Assembly: GCA_016184305.1 (NCBI GenBank)
Contig: JACPCX010000180.1
Coordinates: 1 to 45,072, forward strand
Origin: Candidatus Rokuibacteriota bacterium
Lineage (GTDB): Bacteria > Methylomirabilota > Methylomirabilia > Rokubacteriales > CSP1-6
Length of the DNA: 45,072 nucleotides
Direction of reading: 5' to 3'
This document shows, piece by piece, positions 20,901 through 32,900 of the stretch (positions within the stretch are counted from its first letter, which is position 1; each line of letters begins with the position of its first letter). The position numbers were made by a program.

Positions 20901-23900
20901 CAGCGGCTGGTCGATCGGGAGCGGCAGCACATCGTCCACCTGGCGGCGACGGCCCAGCAGCAGCGTGTGACCCACCGAGTGGTACTCGACCCGTCCCCGC
21001 TCGTAGTCGTAGCGGACGTCCACCCGGTTTTCACGCCCCCTCACGGTGCCAGTGCTTTTCGTCTCGACCGGCATGAAGCGACCGGCCCGGATGATCCCCG
21101 TGGCCTCCGTCCGGTTCGTGATCCCGGATCCCTCGCCAGAGAACGCCACGCGGTAGCGACCCGCCTGGACGTCGACCTCCTCCACCAGCGCGCCGGCGAC
21201 AGTGAACGTCAGGAGATCGAAGAGAACGCCCACATCTACCCGAAATGTAAAGTCTTTTCTCGTCGACGTAGCCGCGACGGAGGGACGCGGGACCAGCAGG
21301 AGGCCGAGCGGAAGAGCCAGGAAGTGCCGTCTCGCGATTTGGAGCACCATGGCAACCCGTATTGTACCCGAGCGCGCCGCTTCAGGAAACCTTGGCCCGC
21401 AAAACCTTTCCTGTTATCGTCGACCCTACCTTCCTTTAACTTTCGGGCTGTTAGGGGGCAGCCAATCCGATGAAAAGTAAGCGTCGCGTCGTGATCACCG
21501 GGCTCGGTGTCGTGGCCCCCAACGGCATCGGCAAGGACGCATTCTGGGACGCCCTAGTTGCCGGCAAGTCCGCCGTCGACTGGATCAGCTCCTTCGACAC
21601 CTCTCCCTACCCGTGCAAGGTCGCCGCCGAGGTGCGGGACTTCAGACCAGAGGAGTTCACGAAGTCTCGGCAGTTGAAGCACTGGGGGCGGTTCTCGCAG
21701 TTCGCCGTTGCAGCCGCTAAGCTCGCGCTCGATGACGCAAACCTTAATCTGGCCCGGGAGGTGCCACCCTTGCGAGTTCTCGCGTGTATCGGGAACGCAA
21801 TGAATGGTTCTGGGGACGTTTACAACACCGCTCGCACGGGCTTCGACCGTCAAGGTCTAGCAGGAATCCCGATGCTCAGCGCCATCGAGTTCGCCGCTCA
21901 CGCTCCGGTAACGCATGTTTCCATGGAATTGGGCATTCGCGGCCAAGCCATCACCATGGCATCGGCCTGCTCGACCGGTCTCGACGTAATGCAGTGGGCA
22001 ACCGCTCAGATACAGGCGAACAAAGCGGACGTCGTGTTCGCGGGAAGTACTGAGGCGCCGATCTCCGAGTTCTGCTTTGCCGCGCTCTGTGCCTTTGGAT
22101 CAATCTCCACGTTCGACGATCCTCCCCATCGAGCGTCCCGCCCGTTCGATCTGAGAAGAAAGGGACTCATCTTGGGCGAAGGGGCAACAGTTTGCGTAAT
22201 CGAAGAGCTAGGACATGCCCTCGACCGCGGAGCCCGCATTTATGCGGAACTTATCGGGTTTGGCAGTGGAAACGAGGCCGGCAGAAAGCGACACGCCCGG
22301 GAGGCGGCCCTATCGCAGGCCATCGTGGGGGCCCTGAGCCAAGCAGGCATCGACGCCTCACGGGTCGACTACATCAACGCTCACGGAAACTCGATGGAGG
22401 ACTACGATCGACTTGACACCGAATCCTTCCGTTTAGTGTTCGGCGCGAAGGCTTACAACATCCCAGTAAGTTCGATTAAGTCAATGATCGGCCATGCGAT
22501 GGGAGCAGCTGCCTCCTTTCAGGTCGCTGCCACTTGCCTTGCTCTTCACAACTCCGTGATCCCGCCTACCATCAACTACGAAGTGCCAGATCCGGAGTGT
22601 GATCTGGATTATGTCCCGAATACCGCTCGATTCGCTCGTATTCGGATCGCTCTTGTCAACGCTCACGCCATCGGCGGGACGTACTCGGCTCTTCTTCTTG
22701 CAGCACCGGAAGGCTGATGACGGGCCACCTAGCACTCATCGCTGCGGTTGCCGTTGCAAATCTCGCCCTCGGCGCAGCCGTACTAGCCAAGCAGCCTCGG
22801 GGCAAGATCAACCGATACTTCGCCCTCTTCTCCTTCGCGGTGGCTGCATGGACGCTCAGCAATGGCCTTGCCCTTACCTACCCGGAAGCCCAATGGGGCT
22901 ACCTCCTGGCACGATTCGCTTTCGCCTCGGCCTCCATCATTCCAATTGCATTTTTCCTTTTTGCAAGCGTATTCCCCACCCCCCAACCGACTCCGGCCGC
23001 AAGACTGCTCTCAGGCTTCACGATCGCTGGGGCAGCCTCGTGTCTTGCTTCGTTCACGCCACTCCTGGTTCGTGGAACAACGTCAGCCAGCGGGACGCTC
23101 CAAGTAGTGTACGGGCCCTTGCACCTGCCATTCGCGATCTACTTCATTTCCTGCCTGAGCGTCAGCTTGCTTCTGTTGAGCCGGAAACTCTTACTCTTGA
23201 CGGGCTTCCAGAGACTACAAGTTCGCTACCTATTCGTCGGAGTCCTGGCTGCGGGCCTCGGAGCGACTGTTACTAACCTCGTAATTCCCCTCCTCGTCGG
23301 CAGCTCCAGGTTCAGTCGCTACGGACCGCTGTTCGGCCTGTTGATGGTCGCCTTCGTCGCGCACTCGATCATCCGGCACCGCCTGATGAATATTCGCCTC
23401 GTGGTTCGCCGAGGCTTCGTGTATCTAGTGGCAGCGGCGATTGCGGGTGCGGTATTCACGGTACTGATCGTCATTTTGGCGGACGTTGCTGGACAACGTA
23501 GTCAGGACGTCTCGCTACCAATTCAGGTGGGTGTGGCTCTACTCATGGCCCTCGCGTTTCAACCCTTAAAGCGCCGCATCCAAAGCTCGCTTGACCGCTA
23601 TCTCTATCGAGAAACGTACGACTACCAGCGCATTATTCGCGACGCAAGCAAGACCATTGGTGCTACGCTCGATCTGAAATCCCTACTGGAATACGTGTGC
23701 CGGATAATGATCCAGACCCTGCGCCCTGACTTCGTGGCCGTGTTCACTCGGGATGCGGGCGCTAACGCATTCGCCCTGGCTACGAAGACAGCCTTTTCGG
23801 AGAACCACGATGTCCCTGGACAAGTTCCCCTGGAGTCATCGGATCCCCTCCCTCGCTTTCTTGTCATGTCGGGGCGGGCGCTTATCAAGGACGAGCTTGG

Positions 23901-29900: not shown

Positions 29901-32900
29901 CGGAAAACCCAGGGACAGGACGCCAAGGTGTCCGTCTCCCTCTCCCGTCTGGACAAGGAGGATCGCGTGCGTCTCACCGTGGCTTCTCGTACCGCCGAAA
30001 TCCGGCCTGACGAGCTGCACCGCCTCTTCGACCCGATCCAGGTCGTCCAGCAGAACCTCCTCGACGTGGGCCCGTGCGTCAGCCAGCGGATCGTGGAGGC
30101 CCAGGGCGGCCACCTCGAGGTGAAGCAGGGACGCGCGGAGGTGGCCTTCAGCGTGGACCTGCCGGGGGGGCCGTCGTGACGGACCGGGCGCGGATCCTCG
30201 TGGTCGACGACGAGATGGGGCCGCGGGAGTCTCTGCGCATGATCCTGAAGCCCCGGCACGACATCGCGACGGCGGACAGCGGCGAGGCGGCGCTCCAGAC
30301 GCTGAAGACCTTCCACCCGGATCTGATGTTCATGGACATCAAGATGCCGCAGATGGACGGCATCGAGCTGCTCCGGCGGGTCAAGGCCATCGATCCGAGC
30401 ATCGAGGTGGTGATGATCACCGCCTATGCCTCCCTCGAGACGGTCAAGAACGCGCTGACGCACGGGGCCTTCGAGTACCTGATCAAGCCGTTCAGCCGGC
30501 AGGATCTCGAGGACACAACCCGTCGCGCCCTGGCGCGCCGGCAGACGGAGCTGGGAACGCGCAGCCAGCTGACGACCCTCGTGGACGAGATGCGCTCGCT
30601 GTCGTCCAAGACCCGCACCCTCGAGGAGGAGGCGCGGCGCGAGCAGGCCGAGCAATCCCTCCGCGTGACCCAGCTCTCCATCCTCCGGGAGATCTCCCGG
30701 GGCATCCTGGGGCAGCTCGACCTGACCCAGCTCACCGCCACCATCACCGAGCTGCTCCGCGACGCGCTCGGCTACGACGAGGTGACCATCCATCTCGGAC
30801 CGAGCCCCGCCGGCGGCCCGGGCGGCGACAGAACGGTCATGTGCCCGATCCGCGACGACGGCGCCACCCTCGGCTACCTCGCGGCGGCCAACCGCGCCGA
30901 GGGGCGCCCGATCGACCCGCGCGAGGGCGAGCTCCTCGAGATGCTCTCGGAGTACCTGGCGGTCGCGATCCGCAACTCGCGCCTCTACGGCGAGGTGACG
31001 GAGACAAAGCGATCGCTGGAGCAGCTCATCCACTCGGCCGGTGACGGGATCATCTCGGTGGACCGCGACGAGAGGATCGTCGCCTGGAACCCCGCCGCCG
31101 AGCGCATCTTCGGCCTGCCGGCCCGGGAGGCGGTGGGCCAGCCGCTGACCGAGCTCCTGCCCCAGGACCGCTATCGTGCGGCCCGCGCGGCCCTGACGCC
31201 CGGCACGCCGATGAAGGCGTTCGAGGTGGCGTCCAAGCGCGCGGACGGCACCGCCCTCACGCTGGCGGTGACGCTGTCCGCGCTCACCGGCCGCGACGGC
31301 CAGATCGAGGGCATGCTCGCGATCGTGCATGACGCGACGGTGCAGCGCGAGCTCGAGACCCAGCTCCTCCAGTCGGAGAAGCTCACCGCGCTGGGACAGA
31401 TGGCCGGCGGCATCGCCCACGACTTCAACAATCTGCTCCAGGCCATCATGGGCTACGCGCAGCTCATGGGGAAGAACCCCGCCAACCTGGACGTGGTCCG
31501 CCGGGGGCTGGATGTCATCGAGGCGGCGGCCGCGGGCGGGGCCGAGACCGTCCGGCGCATCCAGAAGTTCGCCCGGCTGCGTCCCGACGAACCGTTCGTC
31601 TCGCTGGATCTGAACCAGGTCATCCACGACGCCGTGGCCATCACCCAGCCGCGCTGGGAGGAGCGCTCGGCCAAGAGCGGCCTGCCCCTCCGGCTCGAGC
31701 TGACCCTGCCCGCGGTCCCGGCCGTGATGGGCCGTCCCTCGGAGCTGAACGAGGTCGTGACCAATCTGATCCTGAACGCCCTCGACGCCATGCCCAAGGG
31801 CGGCACCCTGAGCCTCCAGACGCGCATCGGCGGCGGCGAGTCGGTGGTCCTCACGGTCAGCGACACCGGCACCGGCATGCCCGAAGCGGTGCGGACGCGG
31901 ATCTTCGATCCCTTCTTCACCACGAAGGGCGACGCGGGCACGGGCCTCGGGCTGTCCGTGTCCTACTCGATCGTGAAGCGGCACGGCGGCGAGATGCGCG
32001 TGGACAGCCATCTCGGGCGCGGCACCACCTTCACCATCGTCTTGCCCGTCGGCAAGCCGGCGGCGGCGGCGGCGGGCTCAACTGACCGGGAGCCCGTGGG
32101 CAGCCGGCACGGCCGCATCCTCCTGGTGGACAACGACGCCCAGGTCCTGACCATCCTCGGCGAGATGCTCCGGGATGCCGGCCATCACGTCCTGCCGGTG
32201 TCGAGCGGAGCCGAAGCCATGCGGGTCTTCGTGCCCGGCGGGTTCGATCTCGTGCTGACCAACATCGGCATGGCCGGCATGACCGGGTGGGAGGTCGCGC
32301 AGCGGGTCCGCACGCGGGACCGGAACGTTCCCGTGGTCTTCATCACGGGCTGGGGGCTCCAGGAGGAGGATCAGGAGCGGTGCCGGGCGCTGGGAGTGAC
32401 GAGCGTCCTGTTCAAGCCCGTGACCCCACCGGAGTTCCACCGGGCGGTCCAGAGCGTCCTCGGGGAGCACGCGAGCCACGCCTGACGCGCCCGCGGCCCC
32501 GCCGGCCGCTCAAAAAGGCCCAGATGCAAGGCGGCGCCCGACGGCCGCACGCGAGGCGTACTCCGCTTGGGGAGCCGAGCCGGAGGCGAGACGAGCGGAT
32601 CCGGAGATCCGGGCGAGCGTGAGCGAGCCACGTCGAGCGCGCGGCCGAGGGCGCCAACGAAGCAGATGGGCCTTTATCGGCGGCCGGCTACAGCCGCTCG
32701 ATGATGGTGCCAATCCCCTGCCCGAAGCCGATGCACATGGTCTGAAGCCCGAAGCGCTTCCCTCGCCGCTCGAGCTCGTGCAGCAGCGTCGTCATGAGGC
32801 GCGCGCCGGAGCACCCGAGCGGATGACCGAGCGCGATGGCCCCGCCGTTGACGTTCACCCGATCCATGTCAGGGTGAAGCTCCCGCTCCCAGGCCAGCAC

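What a model noticed while it worked through the whole genome (the two positions that open the first line are those of the whole stretch)
21470..32485. Orphan FabF-like ketosynthase transcribed with fast-evolving 7TM-GAF-PAS histidine kinases: candidate lipid-signal synth [...]
A divergent extra ketosynthase (g02556) is followed directly by two HisKA_7TM-GAF-PAS histidine kinases, a GAF-PAS-HisKA protein and a hybrid kinase. The synthase-receptor pairing is conserved in Rokubacteriales, and both the ketosynthase and the 7TM sensors diverge much faster than flanking genes, the pattern expected of a signal synthase with its membrane receptor.
Evidence so far: All 12 fetched top loci (of 15 genomes matching at E<=1e-110 among 41; three families) have a HisKA_7TM kinase directly downstream; five 11-20-kb regions keep the 4-5 gene cassette. 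neighbours.tsv: ketosynthase next to HisKA_7TM in 49 of 182 order genomes and 654 genomes overall. Identity to relatives: ketosynthase 48-68%, 7TM domains 34-61%, against PfkB 56-78% and thiolase 81-89% in the same loci. Catalytic Cys and first His invariant, second His replaced by Gln in 9 of 12, FabF HGTST and NSFGFGG motifs changed; below FabF cut-off; housekeeping fabF is separate (g02819). 7 of 80 metagenome loci also show the pair. Searches for PF16927/HisKA-7TM gave 2 archaeal reviews; ketosynthase+quorum [...]
(Added by a program. Inside this text positions count along the whole contig: contig position 1 is position 1 of the stretch shown here. "Call 12" and the like, gene names such as g00115 and contig names such as C1 are that model's own, and its searches are not shown. 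The text may have been shortened before it was handed on; [...] marks where a part breaks off. The agent that wrote the report below was given it as the finding of a first reader that could run no searches.)

Follow-up and report, generated by a model that had tools for sequence, protein, structure and literature searches.

The report
Swappable lipid-signal synthase and receptor cassette
In uncultured soil and groundwater bacteria, a remodelled fatty-acid enzyme and a membrane sensor kinase whose predicted shape resembles animal G-protein-coupled receptors are swapped together between strains as matched pairs, the pattern expected of an undescribed chemical communication system whose signal is still unknown.

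Summary
The operon is real: a divergent ketosynthase (KS), two HisKA_7TM-GAF-PAS kinases, a His-less pseudokinase and a hybrid kinase. A 7TM kinase followed the KS in 67 of 67 order loci that had downstream sequence. 'Fast-evolving' needs correcting. The KS and first 7TM domain are exchanged together as old alleles under purifying selection: a same-genus genome is 97% identical in flanking proteins but 56% in KS and 43% in 7TM. KS and 7TM trees share 14 of 19 supported splits with no conflict; KS and pseudokinase trees conflict at 11. Nitrospirota fill the same slot with KS-ACP-reductase or FabF-ACP-methyltransferase cassettes (PhcB-like by automatic labels). FadL-type lipid channels are often adjacent. 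The predicted 7TM fold matches GPCRs. Best reading (0.68): an acyl-derived signal synthase and its receptor, with about 20 allele types, working like Ralstonia PhcB/PhcS but with a different enzyme and sensor. No product, ligand or expression is shown, and linkage alone can explain part of the co-variation.

The parts
20550..21350 (-). DUF3108-like protein with a twin-arginine-like N-terminus, transcribed divergently; candidate periplasmic carrier (inference)
   Evidence: Weak Pfam DUF3108 match below cut-off; Atlas neighbours DUF3108/DUF6134; recovered in 45 order loci including the window and still linked, downstream, in family f2. The Tat consensus is recalled.
21392..21420 (+). Candidate sigma-70-type promoter (-35 hexamer, 17-nt spacer, extended -10)
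   Evidence: Seen by eye as conserved in many of the 18 intergenic regions printed; not listed by the consensus scan.
21470..22717 (+). Divergent FabF-fold ketosynthase, proposed signal synthase. Cys167, His305 and Lys337 invariant; clade-specific His144, Glu140 and His399; elongation gate remodelled
   Evidence: model pLDDT 94.6 with TM 0.96 to FabF; separate clade from housekeeping FabF.
21670..24500 (+). First exchanged segment (KS after about codon 65, HK1 7TM, GAF, PAS); left breakpoint inside the KS
   Evidence: DNA identity to same-genus G153 drops from 92% to 50% about 200 bp into the KS and recovers to over 90% in the kinase core; GC about 58% here against 70% for the genome. Edges are approximate (200-bp bins).
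22717..25215 (+). HK1: HisKA_7TM sensor (residues 1-229, GPCR-like predicted fold), two more TM helices, GAF, PAS, intact kinase; proposed cognate receptor
   Evidence: Pfam; model and fold search; co-variation with KS.
25287..25682 (+). 131-aa remnant: start of the 7TM domain that same-genus G155 has in its second kinase, ending in what looks by eye like a kinase C-terminal stub
   Evidence: Weak HisKA_7TM hit; 81% identical to the G155 second-kinase 7TM.
25684..28140 (+). HK2: second HisKA_7TM-GAF-PAS kinase with a replaced sensor domain; possible receptor for a non-self signal (inference)
   Evidence: 7TM at most 41% identical to any other sampled 7TM, while the rest is 75-88% identical to G155.
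28137..30179 (+). HK3: receiver-like N-terminus (by alignment, no Pfam hit), GAF, PAS, HisKA with Asp in place of the phospho-His, degenerate HATPase; pseudokinase in this order
   Evidence: matched in 135 of 183 order genomes; keeps the His in the two Nitrospirota and one Verrucomicrobiae-labelled rows.
30179..32485 (+). HK4: REC-GAF-PAS-kinase-REC; first receiver Asp intact, second receiver Asn in 33 of 35

Best explanation
The KS is the synthase of a small acyl-derived signal and the 7TM domain of HK1 is its receptor. Inferred steps: an acyl chain from the host fatty-acid pool (or from a dedicated ACP, where one is encoded) is loaded on Cys167. It is joined once to a second substrate and released, by acyl transfer or a non-canonical condensation rather than iterative elongation. 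The lipid-like product leaves the cell or partitions in the membrane, helped by FadL-type channels where present, and binds the GPCR-like 7TM bundle. HK1 then signals through the pseudokinase HK3 and the hybrid kinase HK4. KS and 7TM are exchanged between lineages as matched pairs, giving about 20 allele types that act like quorum-sensing specificity groups; HK2 may listen to another type. Shown here: gene order, motif changes, co-exchange, slot substitution and predicted folds. Not shown: product, binding, expression, phosphorelay and regulon.
For: (1) Pairing in 67 of 67 loci. (2) Bimodal identities between close relatives: G000/G153 flanks 97%, KS 56%, 7TM 43%; G110/G115 HK3 95%, KS 53%, 7TM 38%; G082/G091 flanks 95-96%, KS 55%; G066/G063 flanks 92-95%, KS 49%; G041/G032b HK3 95%, KS 58%, 7TM 50%. 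(3) In 37 loci, KS and 7TM trees share 14 of 19 supported splits with 0 conflicts; KS and HK3 share 4 with 11 conflicts. Partial Mantel r of KS with 7TM, given HK3 and the kinase core, is 0.73, against 0.09 and 0.12 for the next two domains. The HK3 topology costs 2018 log-likelihood units on KS data, the 7TM topology 94. (4) The left breakpoint falls about 200 bp into the KS in all 7 cross-type pairs with over 75% flank identity, from four genera. (5) Purifying selection within types. (6) The slot holds different acyl chemistry elsewhere: FabF-ACP-KS in family f2; a desaturase before the KS in G101; KS-ACP-reductase, FabG-KS-ACP-KS-KS and FabF-ACP-methyltransferase in Nitrospirota; a PilZ-acyltransferase-methyltransferase fusion before a double-7TM kinase in a Nitrospira record. 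Two relatives of the methyltransferase (49% and 43%) carry the automatic label of the PhcB signal synthase. (7) FadL-family genes in 8 outside-order genomes. (8) Two Nitrospirota loci without a cassette also lack the 7TM domain (L282, L283). (9) GPCR-like fold, with a TM3 Arg conserved in most sampled sensors. (10) Substitutions at positions that gate elongation in FabF.
Against: No product, ligand or transcript. Adjacent genes that have diverged can no longer recombine internally, so linkage alone also gives congruent trees, and the 7TM is the domain nearest the KS. The KS and 7TM topologies are not identical (AU rejects each on the other's data, SH does not). The second 7TM does not track the KS (partial r 0.09). 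Variation was not concentrated in the outer half of the 7TM (0.42 vs 0.38 conservation, p 0.23). One Nitrospiraceae locus has an intact 7TM kinase with no cassette (L326), and G013 and G098 have the second kinase without a KS beside it. Many related 7TM kinases have no synthase neighbour. Family f1 loci have no ACP or release enzyme. The PhcB likeness rests on automatic labels; NCBIfam gave no PhcB family match. Genomes are related, so the Mantel p-values overstate.
Confidence: 0.68

Rival explanations
1. The KS is a co-sensor or membrane-lipid tailoring enzyme: it binds acyl-ACP or alters membrane lipids, and the kinase reads this by direct contact or within the membrane. No diffusible signal is made.
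For: Changes equivalent to FabF gate mutations that cut activity 20- to 50-fold (G310 to Tyr/Phe in 55 of 57, N404 replaced); the first His is replaced in some outside-order copies; related KSs are fused to PilZ, REC or PocR-GGDEF domains; translational coupling to HK1.
Against: Cys167, His305 and Lys337 are invariant in 57 of 57; the slot can hold ACP, reductase, methyltransferase or desaturase genes, which imply a product; FadL-type channels imply traffic; homeostasis does not predict about 20 exchanged types.
Confidence: 0.15
2. Linkage without ligand recognition: the KS makes a strain-specific lipid or antagonistic metabolite under diversifying selection, and the kinases regulate it in response to other cues; the 7TM hitch-hikes in the exchanged block.
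For: The GAF, PAS and often the kinase core of HK1 travel with the block too; low GC3 across the block in 34 of 37 loci; 7TM kinases without a cassette exist.
Against: Breakpoints occur inside the KS 5' end and inside HK1, but no supported KS/7TM conflict was seen; the pair was also duplicated or moved as a unit in G018, G063, G066 and G120; the pairing persists across phyla whose outputs differ (REC-HD-GYP, sigma-54 activators).
Confidence: 0.12
3. The KS is an inhibitor-resistant replacement FabF that the kinases induce when fatty-acid synthesis inhibitors are sensed.
For: FabF fold retained; substitution of the second His is recalled, not checked here, to lower cerulenin and thiolactomycin sensitivity in FabB.
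Against: This genome's copy keeps the His; the gate changes argue against efficient elongation; it does not explain the methyltransferase or reductase cassettes in the same slot.
Confidence: 0.05

Closest known systems
Ralstonia Phc quorum sensing (phcB-phcS-phcR-phcQ)
   Same: Fatty-acid-derived signal synthase followed by a sensor kinase and receiver/kinase proteins without DNA-binding domains; PhcB and PhcS group by signal type while PhcR and PhcQ follow the phylotype (passages of PMC8578825). KS/7TM versus HK3/HK4 split the same way here.
   Different: The synthase here is a ketosynthase; the sensor is HisKA_7TM-GAF-PAS; about 20 types rather than two; a pseudokinase and a second 7TM kinase are present. 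Homology of the sensor to PhcS was not tested.
Photopyrone synthase PpyS and DarB (Photorhabdus)
   Same: Stand-alone ketosynthases that join two acyl groups into a signal (passages of PMC7154725).
   Different: PpyS is FabH-like and both signals are read by LuxR solos; this KS is FabF-like and is paired with a membrane kinase.
Xanthomonas RpfF/RpfC/RpfG and Vibrio CqsA/CqsS, Legionella LqsA/LqsS (recalled)
   Same: Acyl-derived signal synthase beside a polytopic kinase; REC-HD-GYP output as in most Nitrospirota loci.
   Different: Crotonase or PLP enzymes and different sensor families; no homology tested.
Staphylococcal agr and Bacillus comQXP specificity groups (cassette structure recalled; PMC6834553 passages only confirm agr types)
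   Same: A hypervariable block covering the synthase and the receptor's sensing end, with conserved flanks.
   Different: Peptide signals and unrelated proteins.
FabF (KAS II)
   Same: Fold (TM 0.96) and the Cys-His-Lys core.
   Different: Below the family cut-off; HGTST, G310, GFGG, N404 and usually the second His are changed; separate clade.

Membership tests
FabF (TIGR03150) | Score above the curated cut-off | tested here: not met
   376 against 494 bits
FabF (TIGR03150) | Cys-His-His triad | tested here: inconclusive
   Intact in this copy; second His is Q or N in 43 of 57 relatives
FabF (TIGR03150) | GFGG gate with Asp265, Asn404 and a small residue at 310 | tested here: not met
   HxxGG loop, Glu269, Tyr312, and Tyr405 in this copy (roles)
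FabF (TIGR03150) | Elongates acyl-ACP with malonyl-ACP | not testable with these tools
   Needs an assay
PpyS/DarB signal ketosynthases | FabH-like sequence (stated for PpyS) | tested here: not met
   Pfam, PDB and fold hits are FabF-type
PpyS/DarB signal ketosynthases | LuxR-solo receptor | tested here: inconclusive
   No LuxR among the 30 window proteins scanned; the genome was not searched for LuxR
Type II PKS | KS with chain-length factor and ACP in one cluster | tested here: not met
   No second KS or ACP motif in the window; FabF-ACP precedes the KS in family f2 only
Phc system | PhcB methyltransferase as synthase | tested here: not met
   Absent from the operon; a methyltransferase with PhcB-labelled relatives fills the slot in two Nitrospirota genomes
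Phc system | Receiver-plus-kinase partner without a DNA-binding domain | tested here: met
   HK4, and HK3 by alignment
Phc system | Synthase and sensor group by type while downstream genes follow the lineage | tested here: met
Phc system | Sensor homologous to PhcS | not tested
   No PhcS sequence was fetched
HisKA_7TM kinases (PF16927) | Domain score above cut-off | tested here: met
   48.2 and 43.2 against 28.6 bits
GPCR-like 7TM fold | Seven-helix bundle superposing on GPCRs | tested here: met
   Predicted model, residues 1-229: Z 13.7-15.8, 207-226 aligned, rmsd 3.8-4.9 A, identity 6-12%. Helical bundles can reach Z near 13 by chance, and common ancestry was not tested.
Quorum-sensing system | Diffusible product, receptor activation, density dependence | not testable with these tools
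   Needs experiments

The most novel reading that the evidence does not exclude
A multi-phylum bacterial communication system in which a remodelled FabF-type ketosynthase (or an interchangeable acyl cassette) makes a family of undescribed lipid signals, read by GPCR-fold 7TM histidine kinases. It would have about 20 co-exchanged dialects in one order and a second receptor for non-self signals, and would give the first ligand class for the orphan HisKA_7TM domain.
Probability: 0.45. Interest if true: 0.88.

Novelty: new variant of a known kind. Interest (0 to 1): 0.74.

Why it matters
If right, it adds a new synthase class and a new receptor class to bacterial chemical signalling, in abundant uncultured soil lineages and several other phyla. 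Naturally matched KS-7TM pairs make the ligand question directly testable by heterologous expression and a cognate versus non-cognate reporter matrix. It would also assign a ligand to a widespread sensor domain for which my searches found none, and give a bacterial model of lipid recognition by a GPCR-like bundle. The number of allele types suggests strain-level recognition, and the cassette is often lost at contig breaks in metagenome assemblies.

Tried and rejected
Complex prediction of KS with HK1 residues 1-470 gave no answer; it is not used for or against. No RNA holder was listed. No KS relative was confirmed in viral contigs. The outer versus inner 7TM variability test did not discriminate. 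The promoter scan was at chance level. A recent single acquisition as the cause of the GC dip was rejected: GC3 is low in 34 of 37 loci. Accelerated protein evolution was rejected: dN/dS at or below 0.2; 2 of 7 KS pairs had saturated dS and were not used. The second 7TM as a known self or non-self type was not resolved. The L298 KS row was misframed and is disregarded; one search has it in frame. Paper searches for HisKA_7TM + synthase, Rokubacteria + quorum sensing + histidine kinase (46), ketosynthase + signal synthase + kinase (47), 7TM + ketoacyl + kinase (77), GPCR + 7TM + kinase (88) and stand-alone ketosynthase + kinase (114) found no description of this system; the library lacks most subscription papers and no supplements were opened.
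Full report
Observation. The + strand from 21470 to 32485 carries a 415-aa ketosynthase, two HisKA_7TM-GAF-PAS kinases, a GAF-PAS-HisKA protein (HK3) and a REC-GAF-PAS-kinase-REC protein (HK4), mostly with abutting or overlapping stops and starts. The KS is below the FabF cut-off (376 against 494 bits), and a canonical FabF lies on another contig. The two kinases are the genome's only PF16927 matches. 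GC falls to about 58% from the KS to the start of HK2, against 70% for the genome.

Pairing in the order. One search covered 183 genomes and listed 70 non-self places at E<=2.1e-100. I fetched 60 of them, skipping ten that mostly lay on short contigs or at contig ends, and 40 loci around HK3, 9 of which added a KS. In 67 of 67 loci with at least 400 bp downstream, a 7TM domain begins within 250 bp of the KS. HK3 was matched in 135 of 183 genomes. Most of the 40 HK3 loci end at a contig break inside the variable region, so a missing KS in these assemblies says little. G013 and G098 have the second kinase with no KS beside it. The unpublished genomes G008 and G150 enter only the tallies.

Exchange, not fast evolution. 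Close relatives fall into two classes: KS 74-90% with first 7TM 66-92%, or KS 48-63% with 7TM 32-50%. Same-genus G153 is 97% identical in PfkB and DUF3108 and 94% in the HK1 kinase core, but 56% in KS and 43% in 7TM. DNA identity drops about 200 bp into the KS in all seven cross-type pairs with close flanks, from four genera. Over 37 loci the KS and 7TM trees share 14 of 19 supported splits without conflict, while KS and HK3 share 4 and conflict at 11. On KS data the 7TM topology costs 94 log-likelihood units (SH p 0.24; AU rejects) and the HK3 topology 2018. Clustering at 70% gives 20 KS types among 57 sequences. Within types dN/dS is 0.01-0.20 for 5 of 7 pairs (2 saturated), with dS well above that of HK3 where both were measured. 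GC3 is depressed in 34 of 37 cassettes. The remnant is 81% identical to the second-kinase 7TM of same-genus G155, and HK2's present 7TM is at most 41% identical to any other sampled, so this genome replaced that sensor separately. The second 7TM does not track the KS across the order. Linkage of diverged neighbours can produce part of this pattern, and related genomes inflate the significance.

The enzyme. The model is FabF-like (pLDDT 94.6, TM 0.96). Cys167, His305 and Lys337 are invariant in 57 of 57. The second His is Q in 41, H in 14 (including this genome) and N in 2. His144 is invariant, Glu140 is present in 54 and His399 in 52. The positions matching FabF G310 and N404 and the GFGG loop are altered. 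In E. coli FabF, G310F/M and N404A cut condensation roughly 30- to 50-fold (passages of bioRxiv 2021.02.13.431092 and PMC7138838). Position 111, matching Bacillus FabF I108 (its role in the acyl pocket is recalled), varies among types. I infer acyl loading on the Cys and a single joining or transfer step with type-specific chains. In a 142-sequence tree the order's KSs (support 1.00) and the 7TM-linked Verrucomicrobiota KSs (0.98) lie in one clade of 45 (0.98), apart from housekeeping FabF.

The receptor. The predicted HK1 N-terminus has seven helices with a hairpin between helices 4 and 5, two more helices and a GAF domain. Residues 1-229 align to GPCR-fold structures at Z 13.7-15.8 over 207-226 residues. 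This shows a fold, not function or ancestry. Trp45, Arg66, Asn187, Pro191 and Gly203-Pro204 are invariant among the order's first sensors, and the Arg is kept in most outside-order sensors; a polar anchor for an acyl ligand is an inference. HK3 has Asp for the phospho-His in 41 of 41, and the second receiver of HK4 has Asn in 33 of 35.

Beyond the order. HK3 was found in 13 of 301 genomes sampled from a Nitrospirota-labelled genome's phylum and 9 of 121 from a Verrucomicrobiae-labelled one. Of the 8 new loci in the second set, 6 have a stand-alone KS directly before a 7TM-GAF-PAS kinase and HK3, 1 has a truncated KS and 1 ends early. The KS-7TM layout also appears in records titled Chthoniobacterales, Verrucomicrobiae, Lentisphaerae, Armatimonadia, Zipacnadia, Opitutaceae and Syntrophaceae; titles of assembled genomes can be wrong, and some records may be the same genomes as the handles. 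In Nitrospirota the slot before the 7TM kinase holds KS-ACP-reductase (L131), FabG-KS-ACP-KS-KS (L279) or FabF-ACP-methyltransferase (L157, L278). Two of the 120 listed relatives of that methyltransferase bear the automatic label '3-hydroxypalmitic acid methyl ester biosynthesis protein'. L282 and L283 lack both cassette and 7TM. L326 keeps the 7TM without a cassette. L280 and L281 are cut by contig ends. L284-L289 have no cassette, and a PocR-GAF-GGDEF gene precedes the kinase where the contig reaches that far. In family f2 a FabF and, in 9 of 11 loci by motif, an ACP precede the KS. FadL-family genes flank 8 outside-order loci, and the gene before the KS in the Armatimonadia record resembles outer-membrane barrels. 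Outputs vary: REC-HD-GYP, sigma-54 activators or hybrid kinases.

Comparison with known systems. It works most like the Ralstonia Phc system, where synthase and sensor group by signal type and the downstream receiver/kinase proteins follow the lineage (passages of PMC8578825). It is not a member: the synthase differs and homology to PhcS was not tested. Ketosynthase signal synthases are known (PpyS, DarB), but PpyS is FabH-like and both are read by LuxR solos (first part and passages of PMC7154725). Rpf, Cqs/Lqs, agr and comQXP are recalled analogies. For HisKA_7TM I saw only passing mentions (passages of PMC5847659). PMC11960443, PMC12419801 and PMC6834553 (passages) added little. Six targeted searches found no account of this system; the library is incomplete and supplements were not read.

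Verdict. A real, conserved, multi-phylum module with the genomic signature of a synthase-receptor pair under diversifying exchange. Signal synthase with cognate receptor 0.68; co-sensor or lipid tailoring 0.15; linkage only 0.12; resistant FabF 0.05. New variant of a known kind; interest 0.74.

Noticed in passing
window 13687-18213 (-): UvrD/REP helicase with a C-terminal PD-(D/E)XK nuclease domain and an intein.
   Followed up: no
window 37514-40923 (-): BrxL- and PglZ-like genes, part of a BREX-type defence locus; neighbouring long ORFs had no Pfam match.
   Followed up: no
window 18652-20632 (-): YegS/diacylglycerol-kinase-like and PfkB genes follow DUF3108 on the divergent strand in many order loci.
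   Followed up: partly
P0041, P0085, P0089, P0090, P0096, P0102, P0105, P0150: Ketosynthases fused to PilZ, REC, PocR or PocR-GGDEF domains; relatives of the slot methyltransferase are likewise fused to PilZ and REC, several from Omnitrophota records.
   Followed up: partly
L371:4468-10356: Nitrospira record with a PilZ-acyltransferase-methyltransferase fusion directly before a kinase carrying two 7TM domains.
   Followed up: partly
L040, L044, L061: A second or relocated KS-7TM kinase pair, lacking PAS, upstream of the main locus; G063 has two KS types.
   Followed up: partly
L052:126-1166: Fatty acid desaturase immediately upstream of the KS in G101.
   Followed up: partly
L356, L374: Planctomycete-labelled records with tandem arrays of related 7TM kinases and no recognised synthase.
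   Followed up: no
L308: Record titled uncultured Akkermansia with the kinase-HK3-regulator part; the contig ends before the slot.
   Followed up: no
G000 contig C170, 800-4300: Separate pair of ketosynthases with an ACP-sized ORF between them, outside the clade studied.
   Followed up: no
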